A stretch of 64,000 nucleotides of DNA from Elusimicrobiota bacterium (GTDB taxonomy: Bacteria > Elusimicrobiota > Elusimicrobia > UBA1565). The stretch lies in the NCBI GenBank assembly GCA_043819795.1, contig JBDREN010000096.1, positions 1 through 64,000 of the forward strand, written 5' to 3'. Position numbers and translations under genes: made by a program. Position 1 is the first letter of the stretch. Each line of letters begins with the position of its first letter. This document shows, piece after piece, positions 13,700 through 31,655 of the stretch. The notes under the pieces are model-generated. The model did no database searches, was not told where the DNA came from, and was given only the letters and a program-made list of their open reading frames with translations.

Positions 13700-13820
13700 T
13701 ATCCTGGTAGGATAGTCTCTCTTGAGCTTTTGCGCTAGGGTCGCGCTTCTGTAACGTTTTACGCGGCGCGATTCGGGGTCTGGCGCGAGCCGAGCGAGAC
13801 GGCTATGCTTAATAGAGCCG

Positions 13821-14723: not shown

Positions 14724-14797
14724 CGACCGAGCCGCGCGTCCCGACCGTTCATCCCCGACGCCTGGGGAGCCTCTCCGACGTCGAGCCCGACAGGCTC

Positions 14798-16755: not shown

Positions 16756-18156
16756 GTGAATATGAATCATCTACCCCCCGAACCTTACAGGATCAAGTCC
16801 GTCGAGCCGGTCAGGATGCTGAGCGTGGCGGAGCGGCGCGTCCGTCTCCGGGAGGCCGGCTACAACACCTTCCTGCTCCGCAGCGAGGACGTGTATATCG
16901 ACCTGCTGACCGACAGCGGCACCAACGCCATGTCCGACCGGCAGTGGGCGGCCTTGATGCGCGGCGACGAAGCCTACGCCGGGAGCCGCAGCTTCGAGCG
17001 CTTCGCGAAGGCCGTGGCGGACGTCTACGGCTATCCCTACGTGGTCCCCACGCACCAGGGGCGGGGCGCGGAGAACATCCTTTCCAAAATATTGATACGC
17101 CCGGGCGACACGATCCCTGGGAACATGTACTTCACGACGACCCGCCTGCATCAGGAGCTGGCCGGCGGGATTTTCGAGGACGTCATCATCGCGGAGGCGC
17201 ACGATCTCTCCGTCGACCATCCCTTCAAGGGGAACGTGGACCTCAAGAAGCTGAAGGCCATCGTGAAGCGCGTGGGCGCCAAGCGCATCCCGTACATCAC
17301 GATCGGCGCGCCCGTCAATATGGCCGGCGGACAGCCGGTGTCGCTCAAGAACATCCGGGCCGTATGCGAATACTGCCGCCCGCTCGGCATCAAGGTCGTC
17401 CTGGACGGGGCCCGGGCCGTTGAGAACGCCTTCTTCATCCAGGAGCGCGAGCGGGGCTACTCGGAGTGGTCCATCGCCCGGATACTTAAAGAGATGTGCC
17501 GCTGGACGGACGCCGCGCTCGTGAGCGCGAAGAAGGACCTCTACGTCAACATCGGCGGCTTTCTAGCCACCCACGACAAGGACCTCTACGAGCAGGCGAT
17601 GAACCTCTGCGTGGTCTACGAGGGGCTGCACACCTACGGCGGGCTGGCCGGGCGCGACCTGGAGGCCATGGCCGTGGGCGCCCGAGAGATGGTCCAGGAC
17701 TCCTGGATCGCCCACCGGATCGCCCAGGTCCGCTACTTCGGGGAGGCCCTGATGTCGCGCGACATCCCCATCCTGCGCCCGATCGGCGGGCACGGGGTCT
17801 TCGTGGACGCGCGCGCTTTCCTGCCTCACCTGAGCCAGGAGGAGCTCCCGGCCCAAGCCCTGGCCGCCTGGATCTACAAAGACTGCGGCGTGCGGGGCAT
17901 GGAGCGCGGCGTGGTCTCCGCCGGCCGGGACAAGAAGGGCGAGAACAGGCATTGCGCCCTCGAGCTGGTCCGCCTCACGCTGCCGCGCCGGGTCTACACG
18001 CAGTCGCACCTCGACCACGCGGCCGACGGCGTCCGGCGTACCTACGAGCGGCGCCATGAGCTGCCGGGGCTGCGCTTCGTGTACGAGCCCAAGTTCCTGC
18101 GTTTCTTCCAGGCCCGTTTCGAGCCCCTGATCGCTCCGGCGCTGCAGAAGCCGTGA
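16756..18156 (+). CDS. tpl: Tyrosine phenol-lyase (PLP beta-eliminating lyase)
   Basis: GYNTFLL, DLLTDSGTNAMS, GDEAYAG, PTHQGRGAE, GNMYFTTTR, SAKKD (PLP Lys), ERGVVSAGR, LRFF. The TTTR, SAGR and LRFF residues are TPL-type rather than TnaA-type. Confidence 0.85.
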   Translation: MNMNHLPPEPYRIKSVEPVRMLSVAERRVRLREAGYNTFLLRSEDVYIDLLTDSGTNAMSDRQWAALMRGDEAYAGSRSFERFAKAVADVYGYPYVVPTHQGRGAENILSKILIRPGDTIPGNMYFTTTRLHQELAGGIFEDVIIAEAHDLSVDHPFKGNVDLKKLKAIVKRVGAKRIPYITIGAPVNMAGGQPVSLKNIRAVCEYCRPLGIKVVLDGARAVENAFFIQERERGYSEWSIARILKEMCRWTDAALVSAKKDLYVNIGGFLATHDKDLYEQAMNLCVVYEGLHTYGGLAGRDLEAMAVGAREMVQDSWIAHRIAQVRYFGEALMSRDIPILRPIGGHGVFVDARAFLPHLSQEELPAQALAAWIYKDCGVRGMERGVVSAGRDKKGENRHCALELVRLTLPRRVYTQSHLDHAADGVRRTYERRHELPGLRFVYEPKFLRFFQARFEPLIAPALQKP

Positions 18157-20102
18157 ACCGGCCCCGGGAGGCGTCCCGGGGCGCGGCGGTCCGGCGCGTT
18201 GTCCTTGTGGGACGGGCCAACGTCGGGAAGTCGGTGCTCTTCCACGCCCTGACCGGGCGTTACGCCACCGTCTCGAACTATCCGGGGACCACCCTGGACC
18301 TGCGCCGGGCCCGCCTCGGGTCCGGCCTCGAGATCGTCGACACCCCGGGCCTGCTCTCCCTGATCACCCGCACCGAGGACGAGGCGGTCGCCCGCGACGT
18401 GCTGCTCGCCGCGGACGTGGACTGCGTCGTCCACGTCGCCAGCGCCCGGGACCTCGCCGGAGCCCTCTCCTTGACGATGGACCTCGCCCGCCTGCGCCTC
18501 CCCATGGTGCTCGTGCTCAACCTCTGGGACGAGGCCCGGGCCAAGGGCATCCGGATCGACGTGAAGGCCCTGTCGCGGCTCCTGGGCGTGCCGGTCGTGC
18601 CCACGGTCGCCGTCCGCGGCAAGGGCATCGGCGCCCTCAAGAGGGCCATCGAACGGGGAGGGAAGGTGCCGGACGGGCCGCCGCTGCCGGCCGAGCTGCG
18701 GCGCGCGGCCGCGGAGCTCGAGCCCGCGTTGCCGGAGGGCAGCCTCCGCTGGGGTCTGGTCGCGCTGACCGGAGGCGACGGGCTGCGCCGCCGCCTGCGC
18801 GAGCTGGACCTTCTGGAGGCCGCGGAGATGGGGGAGGTGGAGCGCCTGCGGCGCCGCTTCTCCCGGAGGCCTTCTTTCCTGTTCCTGGACGCGGCCCGCG
18901 CCTACGCCGAGGAGCTGGCGGCGCAGACGTCGGGTAAAGAGCCCATGGAGGCCGGAAGGCTCGAAAGGGCGCTGGAGGCGCTGGGCCGCTGGTCGCTGAG
19001 GCCCGTATCGGGCGTTCTGATCGCCGCGGCCGTGCTGTGGGGGCTCTACCAGTTCGTGGGCGTCTTCGGGGCCCAGACGGCGGTCGGCTTCCTCGAGGAG
19101 ACGCTCTTCGGGCGCTACCTTAACCCGGGAGTGAGCGCGGCGGTCGCCTGGGCCGTGCCGTGGGCGCCCCTGCGCGACGCGCTGACCGGCCCCTACGGCG
19201 TGTTCACGATGGCGCTGACCTACGCGCTGGCACTGATCCTGCCGATCGTCGCGACCTTCTTCCTGGCGTTCGGCGTGCTGGAGGACTCGGGCTACCTGCC
19301 CCGCTTCTCGGTCGTGACCGACAAGCTCTTCCGCCTGATCGGGCTCAACGGCAAGGCCGTTCTTCCCATGATGCTCGGTCTCGGCTGCGGCACGATGGCC
19401 GTCATGACGACGCGCATCCTCGAGTCGCGCCGCGAGCGTCTCCTCGCCACGCTTCTCCTGGCCCTGACCGTGCCATGCTCGGCCCAGTTCGGCGTCATCC
19501 TGGGCATGGTGGGGGCCTCCACCCCGGCGGTGTTCGGGGTCTGGGCGGGCGTCGTGGGCGCGTCGCTGGTCGTCGTGGGGTGGGCCGCGTCGCGGGTGGT
19601 CCCGGGGGCTCTGGTCCCGTTCGTCATCGAGATCCCGCCGCTGCGCGTGCCCCTGCTGGGCAACGTGCTGCGCAAGGTCGGCTCGCGGCTGAGGTGGTAT
19701 GTCGCCGAGGTGGTCCCCCTTTTCATCCTGGCGACCATGATCCTTTTCCTGCTGGACCTGACCGGCGGGCTGCGGGTGGTCGAGCGGTTCGCCGCGCCCG
19801 TGCTGCAGGGCATGCTGGGGCTCCCGGCCGAGGCCACGGGGGCGTTTCTGACGGGCTTCTTCAGGAGGGACTACGGGGCCGCGGGCCTTTTCCATCTCCA
19901 CCGCGCGGGCATGCTGGAGCCGCGCCAGGTGGCCGTGAGCCTGGTGTGCATCACGCTGTTCATGCCCTGCTTCGCCCAGTGGCTGATCATCATCCGGGAG
20001 CATGGGTGGCGCGCGACGGCCGCCATCACGGCGTTCGTCCTGGCGTACTCGTTGAGCGTCGCGGGCCTGGTCAACTGGGCCTGGAGGGCCGCGGGAGGCT
20101 GA
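18153..20102 (+). CDS. feoB: Ferrous iron transporter B
   Basis: G1 GRANVGKS, G2 SNYPGTT, G3 DTPG, G4 NLWD; LEDSGYLPR, LGLGC, VPCSAQ, EIPP, FMPCFA. Confidence 0.95.
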   Translation: MNRPREASRGAAVRRVVLVGRANVGKSVLFHALTGRYATVSNYPGTTLDLRRARLGSGLEIVDTPGLLSLITRTEDEAVARDVLLAADVDCVVHVASARDLAGALSLTMDLARLRLPMVLVLNLWDEARAKGIRIDVKALSRLLGVPVVPTVAVRGKGIGALKRAIERGGKVPDGPPLPAELRRAAAELEPALPEGSLRWGLVALTGGDGLRRRLRELDLLEAAEMGEVERLRRRFSRRPSFLFLDAARAYAEELAAQTSGKEPMEAGRLERALEALGRWSLRPVSGVLIAAAVLWGLYQFVGVFGAQTAVGFLEETLFGRYLNPGVSAAVAWAVPWAPLRDALTGPYGVFTMALTYALALILPIVATFFLAFGVLEDSGYLPRFSVVTDKLFRLIGLNGKAVLPMMLGLGCGTMAVMTTRILESRRERLLATLLLALTVPCSAQFGVILGMVGASTPAVFGVWAGVVGASLVVVGWAASRVVPGALVPFVIEIPPLRVPLLGNVLRKVGSRLRWYVAEVVPLFILATMILFLLDLTGGLRVVERFAAPVLQGMLGLPAEATGAFLTGFFRRDYGAAGLFHLHRAGMLEPRQVAVSLVCITLFMPCFAQWLIIIREHGWRATAAITAFVLAYSLSVAGLVNWAWRAAGG

Positions 20103-20103
20103 T

Positions 20104-20784
20104 ATGAGCGAAGAACGGAAATTCCCTCTTCCCACCGCCGAGCAGGAGGACCACGAGGAGGCTCTCGGGCTCATCTGGAAGCTGGGGGAGAAGGGCCTGC
20201 GGGCGCGGGCCGACGTGGAGGCGTCGATCTCCGCGGTGGCGCGTCCGGGCGTGCTCTCCGAGCTCGAGCGCACGGGGCTGGTGCGGACGGAGGGGGAGAT
20301 CGTGACGCTCGCCGAGGAAGGCGAACGGCGCGCGCGGTCGGTGATACGCCGCAACCGCCTGGCCGAGCGTCTGCTTTCGGACGTGCTGGACCTGCCGCGG
20401 GAGGCCGTGGAGGCCAGCGCCTGCCGCATGGAGCACGTCCTCAGCCCCGGAGTCTCGGACGCGATCTGCACGCTTTTGGGCCATCCGCGGTTCTGTCCCC
20501 ACGGGCTGCCGATCCCGCGCGGCCGCTGCTGCGAGAGCTCTCTCGAGCACGTCGAGTCCCTGCTTCAGCCGCTCGACCGCCTCGCGGAAGGGGAGCGCGG
20601 CCGCGTCGCCTACCTCATGTTCCCGGAGAGCCCGGAGACCCAGAGGCTGCTTACCATGGGGGTGGTGCCCGGAGCCCGGCTGAAGGTGGAGCAGCGCTCT
20701 CCGGCGTTCGTGGTCAAGGTCGGCGAGAGCACGATCGCGATGGAACATTCGGTGGCCGAGGGGATCTTCGTCCGCACCGTTTAG
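20104..20784 (+). CDS. DtxR/MntR-family metal-dependent regulator with C-terminal FeoA domain
   Basis: RRNRLAERLL.DVL, ACRMEH, CPHGLPIP; FeoA-like QRLLTMGVVPG. Confidence 0.9.
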   Translation: MSEERKFPLPTAEQEDHEEALGLIWKLGEKGLRARADVEASISAVARPGVLSELERTGLVRTEGEIVTLAEEGERRARSVIRRNRLAERLLSDVLDLPREAVEASACRMEHVLSPGVSDAICTLLGHPRFCPHGLPIPRGRCCESSLEHVESLLQPLDRLAEGERGRVAYLMFPESPETQRLLTMGVVPGARLKVEQRSPAFVVKVGESTIAMEHSVAEGIFVRTV

Positions 20785-20800
20785 CCGGCGAAGGACAGCC

Positions 20801-21337
20801 ATGGGAAAGCCGCGCAAGAAAAGCCGCAAGAGGACTACCCTCACGCTGGACGCGGCGGTCTATCACCCGGATTCGGTTCTGCGCGCGGCGCATGTCATGG
20901 CCGGCAAGCTGCGGATACGCATAGGTCCGATGAAATCTGGAGTCTCTCACGTCGTGTTGGAGGCGGTCGAAGCTTCGGGCGCCGTCGCGCTTTCGGCTTT
21001 GGCCGACGATTTTCTGGACGAGGCGGCCGCCCAGGAGCTGCGCCGCCGCGTGGCCGCGGACAACCGGACCGTACGGGAGTACATCATCACGCTGGCGCTT
21101 CTGTCCGCGAGCGGAGAGCGGCCTTTGGCCGCCGAGAAGCCCCCGGCGACGGAGCGCGCCGCCTCGCCGCGGCTGAGCCAAGAGGAGGAGGCTGAGATCG
21201 ACCGCCTCATAGAGGAGGCGGAGCGGGAGATCAAGCAGAGGGCGCCCCGGCTCTCCGGCCGGAAGGCCGCTCGCAAGCCCCGGGAGAAGACTGATGCCGT
21301 CAAGGCTTCGAAGCCTGGTCCGAAAAAAGCTGCCTGA
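20801..21337 (+). CDS. hxsD: His-Xaa-Ser system protein HxsD-like, with charged C-terminal extension
   Basis: LD..VY....V.RAA and F.DE...QELR..VA..NRTVREYII..AL pattern. Directly upstream of the HxsB-like gene. Confidence 0.7.
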   Translation: MGKPRKKSRKRTTLTLDAAVYHPDSVLRAAHVMAGKLRIRIGPMKSGVSHVVLEAVEASGAVALSALADDFLDEAAAQELRRRVAADNRTVREYIITLALLSASGERPLAAEKPPATERAASPRLSQEEEAEIDRLIEEAEREIKQRAPRLSGRKAARKPREKTDAVKASKPGPKKAA

Positions 21338-22805
21338 TTACGTCGGGCCCTGCGCCTTCAGGAAGCTGCCGGGCGGATACCTGCTGACCAACGACTGGGG
21401 CCGCCATCATTGGCTCTCGCCCGGCGAGTTCGAGCGCTATTTCTCCGGCCGGCTGGCGAAGGGCTCCGCGTCGTGGAGGGAGCTCCGCGACAAGGGCTTC
21501 CTGCGGGACCGCCTGGATTTCCCCGCCCTGGCCGGGAGCTACGCCCGGAAGAACGCCTTCCTCTGGAGCGGTCCCAGACTTCACATCGCGGTGCTTACGC
21601 TGCGCTGCAACCATCGCTGCGCCTATTGCCAGGCCAGCGCGGCCGGACCCAAGGGCGCCGGGCGCGACATGACGGAAGACACCGCCCGGCGCGTGACGGA
21701 ATACGTCTTCGAGAGTCCCGCTCAGGAGCTGACCATCGAGTTCCAGGGGGGCGAGCCCCTGATGAACTGGCGTGCCTTGGAGACCATCGTCCGGTACGGG
21801 GGGGAGCTGGCGGCCGCGTCCGGCCGCAAGCTCCGCCTGGCCTTGGTGTCGAACCTCAGCCTGCTCGACGACCGCCGGCTCGAGTTCCTGATGGAGCATA
21901 AGGTCAGCGTCTGCACCTCCCTGGACGGGCCGGCGGCGCTCCACGACAGGAACCGGCCCTATCCCGGGGGCAGCGGCCACGCCGTCGTCGAGCGCTGGCT
22001 GAGGACGATGGCCCGGCGCTACCCGGACCGCGCGGCCGAGCGCCACCCGCGGCCCAACGCCCTGCTCACCGTGACCCGACGCTCGCTTCCCCTGGCCGAG
22101 GAGATCGTCGACGAGTACGCGCGTCTCGGCCTGCCCGGGATCTTCGTGCGCCCGCTCACTCCCATCGGAACGGCGCGCAGGAGCCGGGCGATCATCGGGT
22201 ATTCCACGGCCGAGTTCCTGGAGTTCTACGGGCGCTGCCTGGACCGCGTCCTGGAGCTCAACCGGGCGGGCACGCCCCTGCGCGAGCGGGGCGCGGCCAT
22301 GCTGCTGACGAAGATCCTGAAGGGATGGGACCCCGGGTACACGGATCTTCGCTCGCCCTGCGGGGCGGGGCTCGGCCAGCTCGCCTACAACTACGACGGG
22401 GATATCTATACCTGCGACGAGGGCCGCATGCTCTCGGAGGAGGGCGACCGGCTCTTCCGCCTCGGCAGCGTCTTCGACACGCCCTATGAGCGCGCCCTGC
22501 GCCATCCGACCGTCAAGGCCTGCGCGGTCGCCTCGCACCTCGAGGACCAGCCGGTGTGCTCGGGCTGCGCCTACAAGCCCTTCTGCGGCGTCTGTCCGGT
22601 GTACAACTACGTGACGCAGGACACGATATGGGGCAGGATGCCGACCAGCGAGCGCTGCGCCCTCTACAAGGGCGTCTTCGACCTTATCTTCGAGCGGCTG
22701 CGCGATCCCGGGACGCGCCGGATCTTCGAGGACTGGGCGAGGGGTCCGGCGTCCGGCGGGGCGGACGGCGCCGATGAGAATCATGGCGAGCCCCATGCCG
22801 GATAG
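21294..22805 (+). CDS. hxsB: His-Xaa-Ser system radical SAM/SPASM maturase HxsB-like
   Basis: GYLLTND.G N-terminal domain, GPRLHIAVLTLRCNHRCAYCQAS, IEFQGGEPL, CTSLDGP..LHD.NR, DLRSPCGAGLGQLAYNYDGDIYTCDEGRM, SPASM CSGCAYKPFCGVCPV. Confidence 0.88.
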   Translation: MPSRLRSLVRKKLPDYVGPCAFRKLPGGYLLTNDWGRHHWLSPGEFERYFSGRLAKGSASWRELRDKGFLRDRLDFPALAGSYARKNAFLWSGPRLHIAVLTLRCNHRCAYCQASAAGPKGAGRDMTEDTARRVTEYVFESPAQELTIEFQGGEPLMNWRALETIVRYGGELAAASGRKLRLALVSNLSLLDDRRLEFLMEHKVSVCTSLDGPAALHDRNRPYPGGSGHAVVERWLRTMARRYPDRAAERHPRPNALLTVTRRSLPLAEEIVDEYARLGLPGIFVRPLTPIGTARRSRAIIGYSTAEFLEFYGRCLDRVLELNRAGTPLRERGAAMLLTKILKGWDPGYTDLRSPCGAGLGQLAYNYDGDIYTCDEGRMLSEEGDRLFRLGSVFDTPYERALRHPTVKACAVASHLEDQPVCSGCAYKPFCGVCPVYNYVTQDTIWGRMPTSERCALYKGVFDLIFERLRDPGTRRIFEDWARGPASGGADGADENHGEPHAG

Positions 22806-23994
22806 CAGCCTCGTCCCCGACGACGTCCTCGAGCAGACGCGCTGCCTGGACATCTCCCCGAGCAACGCCTGCAACGCCCGCTGCCTGTTCTGCTCCCAGG
22901 ACGACGGCGACCGGGAGATGGGGCGGCTGGACCCGGCCGCCACGGCCCGCCACATCTACTGGGCTTTCCGGAACGGCTACCGGCGGCTCGGGCTCTCGGG
23001 AGGGGAGCCCACTCTTCTCCCCGAGCTCCCGCGGCTGATACGCTTCGCCCGGAAAGTGGGCTTCCACTCCATCCGGCTGCAGACCAACGGGATCCGTCTG
23101 GCGGACGCCTCCTACGCCCAACGGCTGGTCGAGGCCGGCTTGAGCACGGTCCGCTTCTCGGTGCACGGGCACGAGGCCGGGCTTCATGACGGCCTCGTCG
23201 GGATCCCGGGCGCGTTCAAGAGCGCGCTGAGCGCGATCGGGAACATGCGGCGCCTGCGATGCCGGCTCGGGCTCAACATCGTCCTCAACGCGGACAACCA
23301 CGCGTTCCTGCCGGAGTTCTTCGAGCTGTTCCTGCGCCGCCTCGAGATCACGAATTTCATGGTGATCTATCCACTCTATGACGGGAACATGGGCCGGGAG
23401 GCGGACCGCATGGGCTTCCGGCTCAGCGAGGCGCTCCCGAGCCTCGAGAAGGCCTTCCGCCTCTTCGAGGAAGAGGGCCTCGAGCCGCCTTTGCTGCTCC
23501 ATTTCACCCCGTGCCTGCTGCCGGGCTACGAGTCGCGCATGCTCGGCTGGTACCGCTTCGAGGCGCGCGTCGTGGAGCCGGACGGCCGCGGCAAGGACCT
23601 CGACGAGGCCGTGCGGTCCCGCAAGCTCAGGCCTTCCTCCTGCGAGGGCTGCGCCTACCGGCCCCGCTGCCCGGGGGTGGACCGCGGATATCTCGATCGC
23701 TACGGCGCGGCCGAGTTCCGGCCCCTGGCGCAGCGCGCCCACGCGCGGACGCGGCCCCCGAGCGACGACCCCCGGCGGCGCATCCTGACCGAGAACGAAC
23801 GCTGCGTGCTCGGGATCCTCTCGACGGGGCCGCGTCCGACCGACGACCTGCTCTCGGCCGCCGTGGACACTCCGCTGTGCCAGGACTGCCGGGGCGGGCC
23901 CGCGGTCCTGCAGGCGGCGGAGCGGCTCGCCCGCATGGGCCGGATCCGGCGCTCCTGGAGCGGCGGGAAGTACCTTTGGACGCCCCGGACCTGA
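22795..23994 (+). CDS. Radical SAM protein (HxsC-like) with C-terminal winged-helix-like domain
   Basis: CNARCLFC, SGGEPT, LQTNG, FTPCLL, CEGCAYRPRCPG. C-terminal ~65 aa with LCQDC. Start 22774 or 22795. Confidence 0.85.
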   Translation: MPDSSLVPDDVLEQTRCLDISPSNACNARCLFCSQDDGDREMGRLDPAATARHIYWAFRNGYRRLGLSGGEPTLLPELPRLIRFARKVGFHSIRLQTNGIRLADASYAQRLVEAGLSTVRFSVHGHEAGLHDGLVGIPGAFKSALSAIGNMRRLRCRLGLNIVLNADNHAFLPEFFELFLRRLEITNFMVIYPLYDGNMGREADRMGFRLSEALPSLEKAFRLFEEEGLEPPLLLHFTPCLLPGYESRMLGWYRFEARVVEPDGRGKDLDEAVRSRKLRPSSCEGCAYRPRCPGVDRGYLDRYGAAEFRPLAQRAHARTRPPSDDPRRRILTENERCVLGILSTGPRPTDDLLSAAVDTPLCQDCRGGPAVLQAAERLARMGRIRRSWSGGKYLWTPRT

Positions 23995-24366
23995 CGGCTT
24001 TCACTCCTCCGCCCGCCTGTCGGAACGGTGGCTTTCCCTGCCGTAAAATTATACTGTACGTAAGGTGATGCCGGGGTCAGTCCCCGTCGTCAGGCTGAGG
24101 CGTCAGCCCCCTCTTTCGACTCCATTGTGCGGCTTCCCCCCGAGACCAGGCTTGATGCGGAAAGAACGGCGGACGTTGCGATGAAAAACAGGATATTTTT
24201 TGGTTAGAGACTCGGCCTTGCGGCCATGCTGGACGCGGAATAATTTGCCAAAATAGGCGTTCGGGCCGGCCCGTTCCGGGGGAGGCTCGTTCGTCCGAAG
24301 AACCATCCATGGGAAACAAGAGATCGGCGTACGGCGGGAAGGGTCCGGCCGCCCGGGGAGGCTCGG

Positions 24367-25239
24367 ATGCCTGACGTCCCCGTTTGGCCGGCCTGCGACC
24401 AGGAGTGCCTCTACTGCTCGAACCCGGCGGGCGATTATCGCCGGCGCACGGCCGAGCATTCCTTCCCGGCTCTGGTCCGGCGTCTGGTGCGCTACAGGGC
24501 CGGCGAGGAGAGCTTCGCCAAGTTCAACGACGCGCGGGACAACCTTACCCTCACCGGGGGGGAGCCCACGCTGCATCCGCAGTTCTTGCGTCTGCTCGCC
24601 GCGGCCCGGAAGGGTTTCCCCTACGCCGATCTGAGGCTGTTGACCCACGGCAGGCGCTTCGCGCTGCGGGATTTCGCGCGCCGGACGCTGGACGCGGCGG
24701 GCTCGCCCTGCGAGGTGGCGGTGAACCTCGTCGGCGCGGAGCGCGGGATCGAGGAGGCCGCGGCGGGAGTGGAGAACCTGCTCGGGCTCCGCGGGCCCGG
24801 GCAGCGCGTGGTCATCCGGGTCGTCCTCACCCGCCCCCAGGTCCGGGGCCTGCCCCGCTTGGCGGGGACGCTCTTGCGACGCCTGGCCGGGATCGACCGG
24901 CTGGAGCTGGTCTTTATGGAGATGGAGGGACGGGCCGAGCTGAACATCGGCGTGCTGGGCCTGCGGATGGGCGAGTGCGCGGCCGCGCTCGACTCCATGT
25001 ACGGCGTCCTGCGCCGCTTCCGGGAGTTCCGTCTCTACCACTTCCCCCTCTGCGTGTTGCCGGAGCGGCTCAGGGCCCATGCCTGGAGCACGCTCGACCC
25101 CGCGAAGGTGGTCCACGCATTCGTCTGTAAGGACTGCCGCCTGCGGCCCGGCTGCGTCGGGATCCATAAGTCGTACGCGCGGCGGATGGGCGTCGCGGAG
25201 TTCCGGCCGCCCGCGCCCGCGGAGCTTGTCGCCGCTTAG
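24367..25239 (+). CDS. Radical SAM protein (HxsC-like)
   Basis: CDQECLYCSNP, LTGGEPTLHP, LYHFPLCVL, CKDCRLRPGCVG. Confidence 0.85.
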   Translation: MPDVPVWPACDQECLYCSNPAGDYRRRTAEHSFPALVRRLVRYRAGEESFAKFNDARDNLTLTGGEPTLHPQFLRLLAAARKGFPYADLRLLTHGRRFALRDFARRTLDAAGSPCEVAVNLVGAERGIEEAAAGVENLLGLRGPGQRVVIRVVLTRPQVRGLPRLAGTLLRRLAGIDRLELVFMEMEGRAELNIGVLGLRMGECAAALDSMYGVLRRFREFRLYHFPLCVLPERLRAHAWSTLDPAKVVHAFVCKDCRLRPGCVGIHKSYARRMGVAEFRPPAPAELVAA

Positions 25240-25249
25240 GAGTATTTTC

Positions 25250-26224
25250 GTGCTTGAGAAGACGGACGACCTTTCCTGGTACGCGCGCAAGGCGGACGGC
25301 CTGCGCAGGGGGATCGCCGTCCCGGCCGCCGGTGAGGACGGAGCCCGCGCGGACAGGGTGGCCGCGCTCTTGGACGAGCTCCGGCGCGGGGGCATACGCG
25401 GCTCCGTCGAGGAGCGCACGCTCTATACCCGGCGCCTGCCTGCCGGATGCCGCGGCTGCCTGGCCGGCAAGGGGACCAACCTCTACGTGACCGGGCTGTG
25501 CACGCGGGACTGCTATTTCTGCTTCAACGCCAAGCCGCGCGCCGACGAGATCGTCGCGCACGGGATCCGGATCCGCGAGCCCGAGGAGGCGGGGGAGATC
25601 GTCTCCCGTTTCGGATTGCGCAGCGTGGGGATCAGCGGGGGGGAGCCGCTGCTCTTCCCGGAGCGGGTGATGCGCGTCGTCCGGACGCTGCGCACGTTGC
25701 CCGAGAGGATTTGGATCGACCTCTACACCAACGGCGACCGCGCCGACGACGACGTCCTGCGCGGTCTCCGGGAGGCGGGGCTCGACGCGGTGCGCTTCAA
25801 CCTGGTCGCCAACGGATTCGATACGGGGCCCGTGGAGCGGGCGCTGCGCTATTTCGACGGGACGGCCGTGGAGGTCCCTGTCGTCCCGGACCGGATGCGG
25901 GAGCTCGAGGAGATGGCGCTGGAGCTCGACCGGCTCGGGGTCCCCTATCTCAATATCCACGAGCTCTTCGCCTGCCGGGAGAACGACCTTCGCGTATCCG
26001 GGCGGGGCCACTCGGCGGAGGAGGCCGGACGAGAGTCGGCGCTGTCGTGGAGCCCGGTGACGGAGGGGGAGGAGGCCGCGCTGCGGCTGCTTCTCTTCGC
26101 GCTCAAGAACACGGATCGGCTCTCGGTCTACTACTGCTCCTGCCGCACCCAGGAGACGATCAGCCGCAGGGGCCTGCGCAGAAGGCGCGGGCTCGCCGCG
26201 GGCGCCCGGGAGGTCCTTTCGTGA
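25250..26224 (+). CDS. Radical SAM protein, COG2108-like (uncharacterised)
   Basis: LPAGCRGCLAG preceding YVTGLCTRDCYFC, ISGGEPL, LYTNG, GLDAVRFN, LNIHEL, YYCS. AGGAG RBS before GTG 25250. Confidence 0.82.
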   Translation: MLEKTDDLSWYARKADGLRRGIAVPAAGEDGARADRVAALLDELRRGGIRGSVEERTLYTRRLPAGCRGCLAGKGTNLYVTGLCTRDCYFCFNAKPRADEIVAHGIRIREPEEAGEIVSRFGLRSVGISGGEPLLFPERVMRVVRTLRTLPERIWIDLYTNGDRADDDVLRGLREAGLDAVRFNLVANGFDTGPVERALRYFDGTAVEVPVVPDRMRELEEMALELDRLGVPYLNIHELFACRENDLRVSGRGHSAEEAGRESALSWSPVTEGEEAALRLLLFALKNTDRLSVYYCSCRTQETISRRGLRRRRGLAAGAREVLS

Positions 26225-27153
26225 GGACCTGGGACGCGGTGGTGGCGGGCGGCGGCCCGGCCAGCCTGTCGGCGGGCTTCTACCTTTCGAGGGCCGGGTT
26301 CCGGGTCCTGCTCGTCGAGCGCGACCGTATCGGGGGTAAGCTGGCCAGGCTTCCGATGGTGCGCAACTATCCCGGGTTCCCGGACGGGATCAAGGGAAGC
26401 CTTCTCGCCCGGCGGATGGCGCTGCAGGCCGAGCGTCACGGCCTGAGCGTGGCGCGGGGGGAGGTCTCCGCCATCGAGCCGCGGGGAGAAGGCCTTCGCC
26501 TGCGCTTCGCGCCCGCGCGTGGGCGCGTCGGCGCGTCGGGGGTCTCTTGCCGCGCCGTGATCGTGGCCACGGGATCGGATTTTCTGCCGCTGGGGCTTCC
26601 CGGTGAGGACGCCTTCCGCGGGCGGGGCCTCTTCCACGCCGCGTTCGGGGATGCGGCGCGCTTCGCGGGAAAGACCGTGGGAGTCGTCGGCGGCGGGGAG
26701 GCCGCCGCCCATCAGGCCCTGGCCCTGGCCGAGCACGCGCGCCGGGTCTTCCTGTTCGCGCGCGGCCGCAAGCTCGCCGCGATCGGACCGCTCCGGGAGG
26801 GCGTCCGGCGCCATCCCCGCATCGTGCCGCGATGGGGGACGGTGATAGGCGCCCTGGAGGGAAACGGCTCGCTCTCGGGCGTCTCCTGGGCGCGGACGTG
26901 CCCCGCCTCCGGGAGGGCGAAGGGCCGGTCGCGGACCGAGCCGCTCGACGCTCTTTTCGTGCTGGTGGGCCAGCGCCCGAGCCTGCCCGAAGTCCGGATC
27001 CGGGCAAGTGACCGTCGCCGAAACGGCGTTTTTGTCGCCGGGGACGCCGACGCCGGGAACTTCCGGCAGGCCGCCATCGCGGCGGCCGACGGCCTGGCGC
27101 GCGCGATGGAGTGCGAGCGCTATTTGAAGAACCGCCGGAGGGCCGCTTCATGA
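26221..27153 (+). CDS. Thioredoxin-reductase-like FAD/NAD(P) oxidoreductase lacking the CxxC motif
   Basis: GGGPASLSA, NYPGF, IVATGS, LGLPGE..F.GRG, VVGGG, GVFVAGD. HAAFGD replaces YCATCD. GTG overlaps the upstream TGA. Confidence 0.82.
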   Translation: MRTWDAVVAGGGPASLSAGFYLSRAGFRVLLVERDRIGGKLARLPMVRNYPGFPDGIKGSLLARRMALQAERHGLSVARGEVSAIEPRGEGLRLRFAPARGRVGASGVSCRAVIVATGSDFLPLGLPGEDAFRGRGLFHAAFGDAARFAGKTVGVVGGGEAAAHQALALAEHARRVFLFARGRKLAAIGPLREGVRRHPRIVPRWGTVIGALEGNGSLSGVSWARTCPASGRAKGRSRTEPLDALFVLVGQRPSLPEVRIRASDRRRNGVFVAGDADAGNFRQAAIAAADGLARAMECERYLKNRRRAAS

Positions 27154-28106
27154 TGACCTCGATCCTAGATATCCAACGCGTCCGGGAGGTCCCGGGCATC
27201 GCCACCCTGTACACGGCCTCGCGGGCGACCGACCCCGACCTGTGGTTCGAGTTCCTCGACGCCGTGGACCCGGGAACGCCGCGCGAGCGCAAATGGGTGA
27301 TCATGGTGTCGACGCAGTTCGGATGCGCGGTCGGCTGCCCGATGTGCGACGTGGGGACCATCGGCTACAACGGCAACCTCGCCACCGAGGAGATGCTCAG
27401 CCAGATCCGGTTCGCGCTCTCGGCCCACCCGGAGACCAACCCGGCCGAGGTCCCGAAGCTCAAGGTGCACTTCGCACGCATGGGCGAGCCGAGCCTCAAC
27501 CCGGCGGTGCTCAAGTGCATCGAGCACCTGGGCCGGGCGGCCCGGCTGCCGGGGCTGATGCCGAGCCTCTCCACCGTGGCGCCGCGCTGCGGCGTCGTGC
27601 GGGACTTCTTCTCCGAGCTGAGCGTCCTCAAGGACCGCTATTTCGGCGCCGGGCGCTTCCAGCTGCAGTTCTCGGTGCATTCCACCGACGAGGAGGCCCG
27701 CCGGGCGTTGATCCCCGTGCGCAAGTGGGGCCTGGAGGAGATCGCCGCCTTCGGGGCCCGCTGGTGGCGGCCCGGGGACCGCCGCATCACCCTGAACTTC
27801 GCCCTGGCCGAAGGCATCCCGTGTTCCCCGGACGTCGTCGAGAGGCATTTCTCTCCCGAGCGCTTTCTCCTCAAGTTCACGCCGATCCATCCGACCGAAC
27901 GGGCCGACCGCAACAAGCTGACCCGGGTGTGGTTCGAGACGCCCGAGGGCATCGCGCGCGTGACGGGCGAGCTGGAGCGCCGCGGCTTCAGGACGATCGT
28001 GAATCCCGCCTGGCCGGAAGAGGTCTTCGGGAGCGTCAGCTGCGGACAGCTGGCCGGGAGCGCGCTGCGCGCCGAGCGGGCCAAAGCGAGGGAGGCGGTT
28101 TGCTGA
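27150..28106 (+). CDS. RlmN/Cfr-like radical SAM protein (atypical)
   Basis: VSTQFGCAVGCPMCD, RMGEP, LQFSVH, C-terminal SCGQL. Lacks the N-terminal domain and the resolving Cys of RlmN. Confidence 0.8.
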   Translation: MMTSILDIQRVREVPGIATLYTASRATDPDLWFEFLDAVDPGTPRERKWVIMVSTQFGCAVGCPMCDVGTIGYNGNLATEEMLSQIRFALSAHPETNPAEVPKLKVHFARMGEPSLNPAVLKCIEHLGRAARLPGLMPSLSTVAPRCGVVRDFFSELSVLKDRYFGAGRFQLQFSVHSTDEEARRALIPVRKWGLEEIAAFGARWWRPGDRRITLNFALAEGIPCSPDVVERHFSPERFLLKFTPIHPTERADRNKLTRVWFETPEGIARVTGELERRGFRTIVNPAWPEEVFGSVSCGQLAGSALRAERAKAREAVC

Positions 28107-28756
28107 AGCTTCCCTGCGTGGAGCCCCGGGGCATCCGCGCCGCCTCCCGCGCCTGGGAGCGCGCGGTCCGCCGGTACGCGCGTCCGGGACCGGGGCTGCG
28201 GCGCGAGCGCTCGGCCCTGCTCGTCGTGGACATGCAGAGGTTCTTCCTGGACCCGGGCGGGCCCGCCTATCTTCCGTCCGGGGCCGCCGTGTTGCCGGCG
28301 GTGCGGCGCCTCGTGGACGCCTTCCGCGACGCCGGGCGGCCCGTCGCTTACGGCGTCTACGTCACGGCCCCCGGCGGTCCGATGGCGCGGCGGTGGCGCC
28401 GGCGGTGCCCGCCCCGCAGCCGGTGGGCGGGCCTCGCCGAGGGCCTCGAGGCCGGGCGGGGGGAGAGGCTGTTCGTCAAGTCGGGCTACAGCGCGCTGCG
28501 CGGCACGGGCCTGGGCGCGTGGCTCCGGGTCCGGGGCGTCTCGGACCTCGTCGTCGCCGGCGTCATGACGAATCTCTGCGTGGAGGCGACCGTGCGCGAC
28601 GCCTTCGACGCCGGTCTCAACGTTTTCGTGCCCCTCGACGGCTGCGCCGCCGGGGCGGAGGAGCTGCACGTCGGTTCGCTCCGGACGATGGCCCAGGGCT
28701 TCGCGACTGTCATGCGCAGCGGCGTCATTCTTTCGAAAATAGGGGAACAAACATGA
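28100..28756 (+). CDS. Cysteine hydrolase (isochorismatase/nicotinamidase family)
   Basis: LLVVDMQ, KSGYSA, AGVMTNLCVEATVRDAFD (D-K-C triad). GGAGG RBS before TTG 28100. Confidence 0.88.
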   Translation: MLKLPCVEPRGIRAASRAWERAVRRYARPGPGLRRERSALLVVDMQRFFLDPGGPAYLPSGAAVLPAVRRLVDAFRDAGRPVAYGVYVTAPGGPMARRWRRRCPPRSRWAGLAEGLEAGRGERLFVKSGYSALRGTGLGAWLRVRGVSDLVVAGVMTNLCVEATVRDAFDAGLNVFVPLDGCAAGAEELHVGSLRTMAQGFATVMRSGVILSKIGEQT

Positions 28757-30744
28757 AACGACTGCTTTTGACGTCCGTCTGCCGGCCGCTGGGGCCGGCC
28801 TACGGGGACGGCCAGAGCGTGGGCTACGAGCTTTTGTTCGGCCAGGTGACGCGCGCCCAAGGGCTCTTTAGCCCGCGTGCGAACCACGTGCAGTTCTCGC
28901 TGGAGTACATCGCCCAGAATGTGGACGCGCCGACCACAGTGCTCCAGTATCCATCACGCCGCGAGCTCGTCCGCGAGCTCAAGAAGGGCTACGACTTCAT
29001 CGGGCTTGCCTTCATCCTGGCGACCTTCCACCGCATGAAGGAGGTCGTCGCGCTCGTGCGCAAGCACGCGCCCCGGACCAAGATCATCCTCGGGGGATAC
29101 GGGACGCTCGCGGGCGACGAGGAGCTTAAACCCTACGCCGACCACATCTGCCGCGGCGAGGGGGTCGCCTTCATGAGGGACCTTCTCGGCGAGGCTCCGC
29201 GGCCGATGCCCTACGAGCACCCGATGATCGTCAGCCGGCTCAAGATATTCTCGATACCCGCGGCCAGGACCGGCATGGTGTTCGCGGGGCTGGGCTGCCC
29301 CAACGGCTGCGACTTCTGCGCCACGTCCCATTTCTTCAAGCGCCGGCACATCCGTCTTCTGCCGACGGGGAAGGACATCTACGACGTCCTTTGCCGGTAC
29401 CAGGACACCATGAATGTCGGTTCGTTCACCATCATCGACGAGGATTTCCTGCTCAACAAGAAGCGCGCCATGGAGCTCCGGCGGTCCGTGCTCGAGGGGG
29501 GCAGGACGTTCTCCATCTTCGCGTTCGCGAGCGTGCGGGCCGTCAGCCAGTATACGCCGGAGGAGCTCCTGGAGATGGGTGTCGACGGGCTCTGGATCGG
29601 CTACGAAGGGACCCGCTCGGGCTACGACAAGCAGAAGGGCGTCCGGCCCTCGGACCTCTTCCCGGAGCTGACCCGCAACGGGATCCTGGTGCTGGCTTCG
29701 ATGATCGTCGGGTTCGACTATCAGGACCCCGATGTGATCGCCGACGAGCTGCGCGGGCTGATGCGCCTGAGGCCCGCGTTGTCCCAGTTCCTCATCTACG
29801 GGCCCCCGCTGGGGACGCCGCTCTACGCCCGCATGAAGAAGGAGCGCCGGCTCCGCCCGGATATCTTCGGTGATCGCGAGAAATTTTTCCGGAACTGCAC
29901 CGGATTCACGTCGGCGATAACCCATTCCAAGATGACGTACGCCGAGATCGAGCGGCTCCAGCGGTGGTGCTTCGAGCAGGATACCCGGCGCCTGGGCCCG
30001 TCCATCTACCGAGCCTCGCGCGTGTGGCTCAACGGCTGCGCGCACCTGAGGCGTTCCCCGCGCGCCGCGCTGCGCCGCAAGTCCCTCGCCATGGGCCGCG
30101 AGGTCCGCAGGATCTATCCTTTGTTCCTGGCAGGGCGCCTGCTCGGTCCCAACCGCAGGATCCGGCGGTGGACGGCGGCCTTCGAGCGCCGCGCCCATCG
30201 CGAGCTGGGCGCGCCGGGCCTGCTGGACCGCGCGCTTTCGGTCTTGGCGCTGGGGGCGGCGCTGTGGACGCGGCTGACGCTCTCACTCAACTGGTTCCAG
30301 CACCCCCATATACGGCCCAGCCGCTACCGGTGGGAGCAGCTGCCCGGGACCCTCATGCGGCTTTGGGGGGATATCCGCGAGAGCGGCACGGCCTCGGAGC
30401 TTCGGGTGCTGCTGGACCGGCGCGCGGCGGACGGGCTCTCCTGGATCCTCCTCGAAGGAGCGCTCGACGGCAAGAGCGCGGCGGAGCTCGGTCGCCGCGT
30501 GCGGGAGGCCTTGGAACGCGGGAAGGAGCGTTTTGTGATCAGCCTGGAGAAGCTCCAGTCGATCGACCGGGAGGGGCTGGCCGAGTTCTACCGCGCCTTC
30601 CGGAAATACCGCGATTCGGTCTGCGTGATCCCTCCGGTCTCCCTTCCTTCCGGCGCCCCCGACCTGCGGGGCCTGGCCGAATACTTCGTCTCCGCCGCCC
30701 AGTGGCGTCTGTCGCGGCCGAGGCGCGCGCCGGCCCATGGCTGA
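28753..30744 (+). CDS. Cobalamin-dependent (class B-type) radical SAM protein with C-terminal STAS-like domain
   Basis: B12-binding-like N-terminus (KIILGGYG, GEG), GCPNGCDFC, IIDEDF, IGYE, IVGFD, GTPLY. C-terminal LEGALD....EL...ISLEKLQSIDREG. Confidence 0.85.
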   Translation: MKRLLLTSVCRPLGPAYGDGQSVGYELLFGQVTRAQGLFSPRANHVQFSLEYIAQNVDAPTTVLQYPSRRELVRELKKGYDFIGLAFILATFHRMKEVVALVRKHAPRTKIILGGYGTLAGDEELKPYADHICRGEGVAFMRDLLGEAPRPMPYEHPMIVSRLKIFSIPAARTGMVFAGLGCPNGCDFCATSHFFKRRHIRLLPTGKDIYDVLCRYQDTMNVGSFTIIDEDFLLNKKRAMELRRSVLEGGRTFSIFAFASVRAVSQYTPEELLEMGVDGLWIGYEGTRSGYDKQKGVRPSDLFPELTRNGILVLASMIVGFDYQDPDVIADELRGLMRLRPALSQFLIYGPPLGTPLYARMKKERRLRPDIFGDREKFFRNCTGFTSAITHSKMTYAEIERLQRWCFEQDTRRLGPSIYRASRVWLNGCAHLRRSPRAALRRKSLAMGREVRRIYPLFLAGRLLGPNRRIRRWTAAFERRAHRELGAPGLLDRALSVLALGAALWTRLTLSLNWFQHPHIRPSRYRWEQLPGTLMRLWGDIRESGTASELRVLLDRRAADGLSWILLEGALDGKSAAELGRRVREALERGKERFVISLEKLQSIDREGLAEFYRAFRKYRDSVCVIPPVSLPSGAPDLRGLAEYFVSAAQWRLSRPRRAPAHG

Positions 30745-30779
30745 GCGGGCGCGACGCGCCGGGGCCTGAGGCGGCGGCC

Positions 30780-31655
30780 GTGACGGTCTCCGCCCGCCGG
30801 AAGCGGGTCCTCGTCCTGCAGTCCATGCTGCTGGCCGCCTTCCTGACCGCGCTCAAGCTCTTCGCGGGCTTGGGTTGCCGGTCGCTCGGGGTGCTGGCCA
30901 GCGCCCTGGACTCGGCCATGGACCTATTCTCCTCGGGGGTCAACTACTTCTCGTTGCGGGTCTCCGAGCAGCCGCCGGACAAGGAGCATCCCTACGGCCA
31001 CGGGAAGATGGAGTCGATCGCCGGGGCCGTGCAGGGGGTGGCGATCTCGGCGAGCGGGCTGGCGCTGCTGGTGGAGGCGATCCGCCGGGCGGTCTCGGGG
31101 AGCCACTTGAGCGTCGGCGCCATGAGCCTCGGGGTGATGCTGGTGGCGACGGTCCTGAGCGCCGTGCACGGCCTTCGCCTCAGCCGGGCCGCCGCGAGCG
31201 CGGAGTCGCGGATACTGCGCGCCGAGGGGCTTCATTTCACCATGGACGTCCTGGCCAACCTGGGCGTGCTGGGCGCGTTGATCCTCGTCAAGCTGGGCGC
31301 TACGTCCGCCTGGGACGTGGCGATCTCTCTCGTCGTGGGCGGCTACGTCGTCCGGGAGGCGATTTCCTTGGTAGGACAGTCCGTCCAGGACCTCATGGAC
31401 CGGGGGCTTTCAAAGAAGATGACCGCCGAGATCGAGTCCATCATCCGCGGCCACCACCCCAGCGTGGTCAGCTTCCATGATCTCCGGAGCCGGCGCTCGG
31501 GCGGGCGGTGCTTCATCGACTTCCATGTCGAGATCGCCGGCGTGAAGAGCTTCCAGCAGGCCCACGAGATCACCGAGTCCCTCATCGAGCGCATACAGGC
31601 CAAGGTCCCCAACGCCGACGTCACGGTCCACCCCGACCCCAAGGGCGAGCGCTAA
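30780..31655 (+). CDS. Cation diffusion facilitator (FieF-like) metal exporter
   Basis: SLGVLASALDS..D, PPDKEHPYGHGKME, H..MD, HDLRSRRSG, AH, VTVHPDP. Confidence 0.92.
   Translation: MTVSARRKRVLVLQSMLLAAFLTALKLFAGLGCRSLGVLASALDSAMDLFSSGVNYFSLRVSEQPPDKEHPYGHGKMESIAGAVQGVAISASGLALLVEAIRRAVSGSHLSVGAMSLGVMLVATVLSAVHGLRLSRAAASAESRILRAEGLHFTMDVLANLGVLGALILVKLGATSAWDVAISLVVGGYVVREAISLVGQSVQDLMDRGLSKKMTAEIESIIRGHHPSVVSFHDLRSRRSGGRCFIDFHVEIAGVKSFQQAHEITESLIERIQAKVPNADVTVHPDPKGER

What the first reader, a model, noticed from the sequence alone, without database searches (positions are those of the whole stretch)
16756..31655. Six-radical-SAM supercluster: expanded His-Xaa-Ser-type (Hxs) maturation system bracketed by iron import and export
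Seen: 13 co-oriented genes, most of them overlapping or abutting. Order: tpl, feoB, dtxR-feoA, hxsD, hxsB, rSAM, a 370-bp gap, rSAM, rSAM (COG2108-like), TrxB-like, rSAM (RlmN-like), Cys hydrolase, B12-rSAM/STAS, CDF. Known: canonical His-Xaa-Ser loci are hxsA (precursor) plus hxsB, hxsC and hxsD. Here the core is extended by three more rSAM classes, a flavin reductase and a hydrolase. It is flanked by Fe(II) uptake with its repressor and by a FieF-like exporter. Inference: a self-contained, iron-regulated radical-SAM pathway (RiPP, protein modification or cofactor biosynthesis) with its own iron supply and electron donor. I do not recognise a described pathway with this composition.
Basis: partly seen in the sequence, partly recalled or inferred. 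Interest (0 to 1): 0.88.

Follow-up and report, generated by a model that had tools for sequence, protein, structure and literature searches.

The report
Composite radical-SAM operon, precursor encoded elsewhere
This 13-gene stretch joins half of a peptide-modifying enzyme cluster, whose likely target peptide is encoded elsewhere in the genome, to an unstudied enzyme module built around an unusual relative of the RNA methylase RlmN; the parts were likely gathered by shared low-oxygen regulation rather than forming one iron-controlled pathway.

Summary
The 13 co-oriented genes and six radical-SAM motifs are real; one self-contained, iron-regulated pathway is not supported.

(1) hxsD-hxsB plus two HxsC-like genes have no precursor here. 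The orthologous HxsA4 peptide lies on contig C120, beside an HxsB that has lost all three cluster cysteines and with no hxsC. This looks like a split cluster that likely works in trans.

(2) The TrxB-like, RlmN-like and hydrolase genes form an independent trio. They fuse pairwise, occur without hxs genes in 73 metagenome loci, and lack RlmN's Cys118 and TrxB's CxxC. The B12 and COG2108-like enzymes are regular partners in relatives.

(3) tpl-feoB-dtxR recurs in one relative. The CDF is unlinked in 5 of 5 relatives. The DtxR DNA-binding helix is divergent, and no iron box was found.

In relatives a Crp/FNR-type palindrome heads operons holding tpl, hxsD, the trio and nifH-like genes. This genome has no such box here and no orthologue of that regulator was found. 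The scan noted the trio and giant Hxs clusters before on other DNA; the split and the shared box appear in none of the notes retrieved.

The parts
16762..18156 (+). tyrosine phenol-lyase-type PLP beta-eliminating lyase (tpl)
   Evidence: 587 bits to solved TPL vs 419 to tryptophanase; the DEAYAG, YFTTT, KKD, MERG and RFFxARF stretches align to TPL; 691 vs cut-off 721 for TIGR02618
18153..20102 (+). FeoB Fe(II) transporter
   Evidence: TIGR00437 372 > 316
20104..20784 (+). DtxR-type metal-binding/dimerisation domain fused to FeoA; DNA-recognition helix divergent
   Evidence: PF02742 and PF04023 match, no N-terminal DNA-binding family at E<=0.1; alignment to IdeR/DtxR
20801..21337 (+). HxsD-like accessory protein
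   Evidence: TIGR03976 35.1 < 50; in a 100/99 clade with G010, G001, G015 and the C120 copy
21294..22805 (+). HxsB radical SAM/SPASM maturase, cluster motif intact
   Evidence: TIGR03978 474 > 370; C105/C109/C112 present; groups with G015, G010, G001 (96/87), with the C120 copy as sister
22795..23994 (+). HxsC/HxsC4-like radical SAM enzyme 1
   Evidence: NF038332 115 < 500, TIGR03977 94 < 268; sister to the G010 gene directly upstream of hxsA (FastTree 1.0)
23995..24366 (.). 372-bp non-coding gap where G010 has hxsA plus two more HxsC-like genes; AT-rich tracts, possible internal promoter
   Evidence: no remnant found; no Rfam match in the window
24367..25239 (+). HxsC-like radical SAM enzyme 2
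   Evidence: TIGR03977 122 < 268; groups with G001 and G010 (0.98)
25250..26224 (+). RS4: COG2108-like radical SAM enzyme of unknown substrate, with extra invariant Cys67, Cys70 and Cys296
   Evidence: in 44 of 61 genomes; model pLDDT 89, only generic radical-SAM fold matches
26221..27153 (+). TrxB-fold FAD/NAD(P)H oxidoreductase without the redox CxxC
   Evidence: HAAFGD aligned to TCATCD; no conserved Cys across 73 homologues; fused to the RlmN-like domain in P0140, P0144, P0156
27150..28106 (+). RlmN-fold radical SAM enzyme without the N-terminal domain and without Cys118 (Met52); keeps the Cys355 equivalent (Cys298)
   Evidence: (TM 0.74 to 6fz6)
28103..28756 (+). isochorismatase-family cysteine hydrolase, triad D43-K126-C159
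   Evidence: PF00857; triad conserved in 34 homologues, D43 gapped in 4; fused to the RlmN-like domain in 88 of the 120 top homologues
28753..30744 (+). B12-binding radical SAM enzyme with a weak C-terminal STAS-like match
   Evidence: within 10 kb of RlmN-like in 14 of 17 relatives that hold it
30780..31655 (+). CDF-family cation exporter; likely a local addition
   Evidence: TIGR01297 204 > 82, FieF 203 < 420; never on the module's contig in 5 relatives

Best explanation
The region is a composite operon of at least three separable units, likely left over from a larger low-oxygen gene island, not one pathway. Unit A (hxsD, hxsB, two hxsC-like genes) is half of a split HxsA4-type peptide-maturation cluster. 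Its enzymes likely modify in trans the (Ser-His-Gly)n peptide encoded on contig C120, which keeps the precursor, two B12 radical-SAM genes and an A24-peptidase-like gene but only a cluster-less HxsB. Unit B (TrxB-like, RlmN-like, hydrolase, usually with the B12 and COG2108-like enzymes) is an independent module. Inferred chemistry: SAM methylates Cys298, and the deoxyadenosyl radical turns this into a thiomethylene radical. That radical adds one carbon to a small heteroaromatic substrate rather than to RNA. The flavoprotein supplies NAD(P)H-derived electrons and may drive release in place of the missing Cys118, and the hydrolase cleaves an amide before or after. Unit C (tpl, feoB, dtxR-feoA) is catabolic and iron-uptake cargo of the same island; the CDF is a local neighbour. 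Shown: gene content, orthology, fusions, residues, co-location, the palindrome. Inferred: trans action (about 0.5), small-molecule substrate (about 0.5), oxygen control in relatives (about 0.65).
For: Split: the genes of the G010 cluster have their best G000 hits divided between the window (hxsD, hxsB, C1, C2, RS4, trx, rlmN, cys), C120 (F54, B12-rSAMs, hxsA, 439-aa gene), C4, C32 and C197. The C120 HxsB reads RRNQGSPYQ, with substitutions at all three Cys codons, and fails TIGR03978 (352 < 370). The C120 peptide passes HxsA4 NF038313 (79.8 > 55) and groups with the G010/G001 precursors (93/88). Trio: TrxB-like within 2 genes in 57 of 73 metagenome loci; hydrolase in 37 of 73 (37 of 49 with two or more upstream genes); no hxs, RS4, tpl or feoB hit in them. 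In relatives TrxB-like is directly upstream in 25 of 34, and the hydrolase is fused (length over 490 aa) in 21 and adjacent in 7. Fusions occur in both directions, and other members are fused to a QueT-type transporter and an MTA/SAH nucleosidase. Island: G001 has tpl-feoB-dtxR/feoA in the same order, and G010 has tpl-dtxR/feoA, each upstream on the contig of its hxs cluster together with Moco, Mo-oxidoreductase, alternative complex III and an FNR-like gene. ATGA-N6-TCAT occurs in 13 of 117 upstream regions vs 0.1 in shuffles, about 50-95 nt before tpl, RS4, trx, hxsD and nifH-like genes. It is in 10 of 55 core vs 14 of 521 other upstream regions, and 12 of those 14 head or face operons holding module genes. 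The G001/G010 regulator has Cys16, 19, 28 and 118.
Against: Tight coupling (-4 overlaps from RS4 to the B12 gene and at tpl-feoB) fits co-transcription. RS4 is near hxsB in 10 of 28 and tpl near hxsB in 9 of 19 genomes within 25 kb, far above chance, which a shared pathway would also give; these genomes are kin, not independent. The window has no palindrome (PWM -3.2 before tpl, 1.7 in the gap), and G000's best hits to the regulator are 25-33%, so oxygen control of this copy is unsupported. C32 is a third locus with its own live HxsB and HxsC-like genes, which could serve the C120 peptide instead. The motif and its test come from the same loci. The A24 match is below cut-off (21.5 < 26.5). No substrate is identified for any enzyme. 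G000 is 90% complete and relatives are fragmented, so 'unlinked' can be an assembly effect.
Confidence: 0.65

Rival explanations
1. One expanded Hxs pathway: RS4, the trio and the B12 enzyme are tailoring enzymes (or make a building block) for the HxsA4 peptide, and tpl and feoB supply substrate and iron.
For: Contiguous hxs-RS4-trx-rlmN-cys order in G001 and G010; hxs next to trx-rlmN-B12 in G060 and divergent from trx-rlmN-tpl across one shared box in G049; other Hxs loci of relatives carry 13-14 radical-SAM motifs.
Against: The trio has no hxs gene nearby in 73 of 73 metagenome loci (flanks of 8 kb at most, many contigs short); RlmN-like is within 25 kb of hxsB in 4 of 22 genomes; RS4 stands without these partners in betaproteobacterial loci; G001 and G010 have no match to the B12 gene at E<=1e-120.
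Confidence: 0.15
2. Unit A is a decaying orphan: after losing hxsA and the activator site, the four hxs genes here have no substrate, and the C120 peptide is served by C32 or by nothing.
For: No precursor in cis and no box; a 46-codon hxsD-like remnant on C4 shows turnover of these genes; C32 is complete.
Against: All four frames are intact with their cluster motifs; the window's HxsB has a short branch (0.25) against 0.86 for the dead C120 copy; GC3 of hxsB and both hxsC-like genes (0.90-0.93) equals that of glnS.
Confidence: 0.12
3. A self-contained, iron-regulated operon with its own iron import, export and repressor.
For: feoB and a DtxR-like gene open the operon and a CDF closes it; feoB-feoA directly precedes RS4 in G013 and G007.
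Against: CDF linked in 0 of 5 and FeoB in 3 of 11 relatives; recognition helix divergent; best Fur/DtxR consensus matches 9-11 of 19 upstream of tpl and in the gap (consensus recalled).
Confidence: 0.08

Closest known systems
HXS antiphage system HxsD-HxsB-HxsC-HxsA (TIGR03976-03979; PMC13128918, parts 1-4 of 9 read)
   Same: HxsB passes the family cut-off; hxsD-hxsB-hxsC order; His-Xaa-Ser repeat substrate (on another contig).
   Different: No hxsA in cis; two divergent HxsC-like genes; the candidate substrate is a 118-aa HxsA4 peptide with no peptidoglycan-binding domain found. The paper reports over 99.8% four-gene systems and 99.7% in Pseudomonadota. An antiphage role here is untested.
HxsA4/HxsC4 rare-variant families (NCBIfam NF038313, NF038332)
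   Same: The C120 peptide passes NF038313; the first HxsC-like protein's best model is HxsC4.
   Different: The HxsC4 score is far below cut-off (115 vs 500); no functional study was found.
RlmN/Cfr class A radical SAM methylases (PDB 3rfa, 5hr7, 6fz6, 9p0p)
   Same: Fold (TM 0.74), CxxxCxxC, MGEP, Glu105- and Cys355-equivalents.
   Different: No N-terminal domain; Met, Ile or Thr at Cys118, which RlmN needs for methylation (PMC5130265, passages); invariant Arg in ARMGEP and KW motif; fused to a hydrolase, a flavoprotein or a QueT-type transporter.
Group VI nitrogenase-like/radical SAM loci of Elusimicrobia (bioRxiv 10.1101/765248, passages; PMC13474568, passages)
   Same: In relatives, nifH/DK-like genes abut RS4-rlmN-B12 (L082, G008) or end an hxs cluster (G034), and nifH-like carries the same palindrome.
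   Different: No nitrogenase-like gene was found in G000. The preprint's main text never uses 'His-Xaa'; its supplements were not seen.

Membership tests
Canonical HXS system | HxsB above TIGR03978 cut-off with intact cluster motif | tested here: met
   474 > 370; C105/109/112
Canonical HXS system | HxsC above TIGR03977 cut-off | tested here: not met
   94 and 122 vs 268
Canonical HXS system | HxsD above TIGR03976 cut-off | tested here: not met
   35.1 vs 50, E 1e-8: a homologue below cut-off
Canonical HXS system | hxsA in the same operon | tested here: not met
   none on contig C96
Canonical HXS system | blocks phage DNA entry | not testable with these tools
   PADLOC gave only weak viperin matches; that library predates the HXS paper
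HxsA4-type system (genome-wide) | HxsA4 precursor above NF038313 cut-off | tested here: met
   C120 peptide 79.8 > 55; not in the window
RlmN/Cfr | RlmN fold, CxxxCxxC and methyl-carrying Cys355 | tested here: met
   C298 invariant in 34 + 53 + 61 homologues
RlmN/Cfr | second catalytic Cys118 | tested here: not met
   Met52; Cys in that column in 1 of 148 homologues
RlmN/Cfr | N-terminal domain and family score | tested here: not met
   query 44 aligns to RlmN 110; TIGR00048 55 < 290; G000 has another RlmN-like gene on C122
Thioredoxin reductase TrxB | redox-active CxxC | tested here: not met
Tyrosine phenol-lyase | TPL-type active-site stretches and family score | tested here: inconclusive
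   stretches conserved (roles of Y71, T124, K257, R381, F448 recalled); score 691 just under 721
DtxR/IdeR repressor | DNA-binding winged helix and operator | tested here: inconclusive
   metal-site ACRMEH kept, recognition helix divergent, no N-terminal Pfam match, no box
FieF iron exporter | NF050169 cut-off | tested here: not met
   203 < 420; CDF superfamily met; metal specificity untested
Crp/FNR regulon | xxTGA-N6-TCAxx site upstream in this genome | tested here: not met
   no site in the window; present in relatives

The most novel reading that the evidence does not exclude
The COG2108-like, TrxB-like, RlmN-like, hydrolase and B12 genes encode an undescribed anaerobic pathway. In it an RlmN-type enzyme adds carbon to a small molecule and releases it without the Cys118 that RlmN requires. 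One FNR-like regulator switches it on together with giant His-Xaa-Ser peptide clusters and the unexplained group VI nitrogenase-like genes. That would tie these orphan systems into one low-oxygen programme and point Elusimicrobiota Hxs peptides to a role other than phage defence.
Probability: 0.3. Interest if true: 0.82.

Novelty: new variant of a known kind. Interest (0 to 1): 0.52.

Why it matters
It corrects a tempting 'supercluster' into testable units. The trio is a three-protein system, widespread outside this lineage, whose core enzyme breaks the two-cysteine rule of class A radical methylases and can be assayed in vitro. The split Hxs locus is a natural dissection: it predicts which maturases must act on the HxsA4 peptide and shows that searching single loci can miss working systems. 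The shared palindrome gives a regulatory handle on the giant Hxs clusters and group VI nitrogenase-like genes, and suggests low oxygen as the condition under which to look for their products.

Tried and rejected
- Hidden precursor or remnant in the gap: none, by six-frame reading, tblastn and blastn.
- Structured RNA: no Rfam match in the window.
- Promoter/terminator scan: at chance level (1 vs 0.6 and 12 vs 6.9).
- RlmN-like as a substitute thymidylate synthase (suggested by nrdD-nrdG following it in genus g17 and by phage copies): rejected as a replacement, because ThyX is in 52 of 61 genomes and ThyA in 5 of 61.
- Phage homologues: no consistent partner, and no hit to other window genes in 80 viral loci.
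- RS4 structure: no specific relative (best Z 15.1, viperin, tied with NifB, SuiB and GDGT-MAS).
- My working label 'NrdG-like' for family F23 was wrong; it passes TIGR04038, TatD-associated radical SAM.
- F54 as the leader peptidase: rejected (Cys-rich, at most one hydrophobic segment).
- Sequencing runs: no RNA holder listed; three low-share DNA runs gave only short pieces and none of the listed ones bridges the gap.
- Complex prediction of HxsB with the C120 peptide was not available, so binding is untested.
- Literature: no paper holds RlmN + isochorismatase + radical SAM + thioredoxin reductase, or tyrosine phenol-lyase + FNR + anaerobic + radical SAM. HxsA4/HxsC4 occur in none of the 10 listed of 30 hits. 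COG2108 occurs in none of the 40 listed of 2,101 hits, a search swamped by an unrelated term. The search for a paper on the palindrome gave nothing relevant.
- Rows left out: the G008 TPL-like hit (50% identity) from the window-type TPL set, partial HxsB matches from the 37-genome set, and loci L377-L380 (distant hits) plus 3 loci without a called gene from the metagenome count.


Full report
Observation. The region holds 13 co-oriented genes in the order given, with six CxxxCxxC motifs and a 372-bp gap. The closest named homologues come from Elusimicrobiota, so the genome likely belongs there. HxsB and FeoB pass their NCBIfam cut-offs. HxsD and the two enzymes flanking the gap (both HxsC-like) are homologues below cut-off. 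The RlmN-like, TrxB-like, DtxR-like and FieF-like names all fall below their equivalog cut-offs. A six-frame scan of the genome found His-Xaa-Ser repeat ORFs only on contigs C32 and C120, plus one chance hit.

Unit A, half of a split Hxs cluster. In G010 the order is hxsD, hxsB, F54, radical-SAM and B12 genes, hxsC1, hxsA, two further hxsC, hxsC2, two genes, RS4, trx, rlmN, cys; G001 is similar. The window's gap sits where G010 has hxsA and two hxsC, and no remnant was seen. The window's HxsB, HxsD and both HxsC-like proteins group with these relatives. Most other genes of that cluster have their best G000 hits on C120, with single genes on C4, C32 and C197. C120 keeps an HxsA4 peptide (79.8 > 55) that groups with the G010 and G001 precursors (93/88). 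It also keeps two B12 radical-SAM genes and a weak A24-peptidase match (21.5 < 26.5; lead from earlier scan notes). Its HxsB is the sister of the window's clade but has Arg, Ser and Gln at the three cluster cysteines, and no hxsC lies there. Reciprocal loss after duplication is the simplest reading, and it implies action in trans (inference). The complete C32 locus is the rival source of enzymes. In E. coli, HxsB, HxsC and HxsD are all needed to process HxsA and give a +8 Da change (PMC13128918, parts 1-4 of 9 read). Whether an HxsA4 peptide is antiphage is unknown.

Unit B, an independent module. The RlmN-like protein has the RlmN fold (model pLDDT 93.5; TM 0.74) and keeps the Glu105 and Cys355 equivalents. 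It lacks the N-terminal domain and has Met at Cys118. Across 34 relatives, 53 metagenome and 61 viral homologues Cys298 is invariant, and the Cys118 column holds Cys once. RlmN C118A makes no m2A and traps a covalent RNA complex (PMC5130265, passages). The flavoprotein lacks CxxC, and the hydrolase keeps its triad. The three are bound together. 88 of the 120 best homologues are hydrolase fusions, and three are flavoprotein fusions. In 73 metagenome loci the flavoprotein is within two genes in 57 and the hydrolase within three in 37, with no hxs, RS4, tpl or feoB hit (short flanks). Look-alike clusters are commonest in Thermotogota, Thermoplasmatota and Chloroflexota. Among relatives the B12 enzyme lies within 10 kb of it in 14 of 17 genomes, and RS4 within 12 kb in 14 of 29, against 0.19 by chance. 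Fusions to a QueT-type transporter and an MTA/SAH nucleosidase, together with the missing N-terminal domain, favour a small heteroaromatic substrate. The steps proposed under Best explanation are inference from RlmN chemistry. A role replacing thymidylate synthase was rejected. RS4 has no specific structural relative.

Unit C and the iron claim. tpl is adjacent or near to RS4 in 11 of 21 genomes holding both, and tpl-feoB-dtxR/feoA recurs in G001, so these genes are not random neighbours. But this FeoB clade occurs in 11 relatives and is linked in 3 (other FeoB clades were not counted). The CDF occurs in 5 and is on the module's contig in none. The DtxR-like protein keeps its metal site but not the recognition-helix residues. 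No Fur or DtxR-like box lies upstream or in the gap (recalled consensus).

What ties the units together. In G001 and G010 these genes sit in a long island with Moco genes, a Mo-oxidoreductase, alternative complex III and an FNR-like regulator that has N-terminal cysteines. Elsewhere they neighbour hemerythrin, CBS, PFOR, NrdD and nitrogenase-like genes. A de novo search found ATGA-N6-TCAT in 13 of 117 upstream regions (0.1 expected), placed before tpl, RS4, trx, hxsD, the gene leading to hxsD, and nifH-like genes. A fixed pattern hit 10 of 55 core and 14 of 521 other regions; 12 of the 14 head or face operons with module genes, some being the same site seen from both sides. The spacing is that of Crp/FNR sites (recalled). 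The window lacks the site and G000's best regulator hits are 25-33%. The operon therefore reads as a compacted remnant of that island; its present control is unknown.

Comparison and novelty. Unit A works like an Hxs maturation system but fails canonical membership on HxsC, HxsD and hxsA in cis. Unit B works like RlmN up to the radical step but is not an RlmN. No paper was found on the trio or on HxsA4. The preprint on Elusimicrobia radical-SAM/nitrogenase-like loci does not use 'His-Xaa' in its main text (passages only; its supplements, including the locus figure, were not seen). This scan has already reported the trio (e1-5223927) and giant Hxs clusters with proteases and nitrogenase-like genes (e1-7052423, e1-8139753, e1-7654882) on other DNA; these are unchecked AI notes, not independent support. 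The split cluster, the B12 and RS4 partnership and the shared palindrome were in none of the notes retrieved.

Verdict. Observation confirmed; interpretation partly supported. New variant of a known kind, carrying an uncharacterised module; interest 0.52, and 0.82 if the novel case (probability 0.3) holds.

Noticed in passing
G000 contig C32, about 20400-42900 (L043, L044): A complete third Hxs locus: own (SHG)n precursor, 8 radical-SAM motifs in the 31 genes called, three HxsD-like genes, two cluster-less HxsB-like genes, an aminotransferase class V and a halogenase-like gene; paralogous loci in G001, G010 and G042.
   Followed up: partly
G000 contig C120, about 67000-78000 (L045): hxsD, cluster-less hxsB, Cys-rich F54, two B12 radical-SAM genes, HxsA4, A24-peptidase-like gene, tetrapyrrole-methylase-like gene; no hxsC.
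   Followed up: yes
G000 contig C4 (L141:164-2091; L142:1980-3308, 7886-8023): Two more HxsC-like genes at a contig end, another A24-like gene, and a 46-codon ORF resembling the start of the C120 HxsD.
   Followed up: partly
L147-L148 (G034 C10) and L151-L152, L184 (G005 C9): hxsD-hxsB-hxsA followed by many radical-SAM genes (14 and 13 motifs per fetched region) and nifH/DK-like genes.
   Followed up: partly
L221-L300, L381, L382: Phages carry a distinct branch of the RlmN-like family (Thr at the Cys118 column in 60 of 61; 245 viral loci matched), often among DNA- and nucleotide-metabolism genes and in one record near a tRNA cluster.
   Followed up: partly
P0189, P0202, P0217: QueT-type transporter fused to the RlmN-like domain, in two cases also to a nucleoside phosphorylase/MTA-SAH nucleosidase domain.
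   Followed up: partly
L203-L207 (genus g17): Crp-family gene, trx, rlmN-hydrolase fusion, then anaerobic ribonucleotide reductase nrdD-nrdG, Rrf2 and a cytochrome oxidase operon, co-oriented in five genomes.
   Followed up: partly
L085-L094, L100: RS4 has 65-70% identical relatives in betaproteobacterial genomes, standing without any of the window's other genes.
   Followed up: no
window 55208-64000 (-): A very long ORF (at least 2930 aa) with glycine-rich sequence runs off the window's end.
   Followed up: no
window 11705-16273: Upstream neighbours are a Ser/Thr kinase and a fused membrane/spermidine-synthase-like gene; no link to the module was tested.
   Followed up: no
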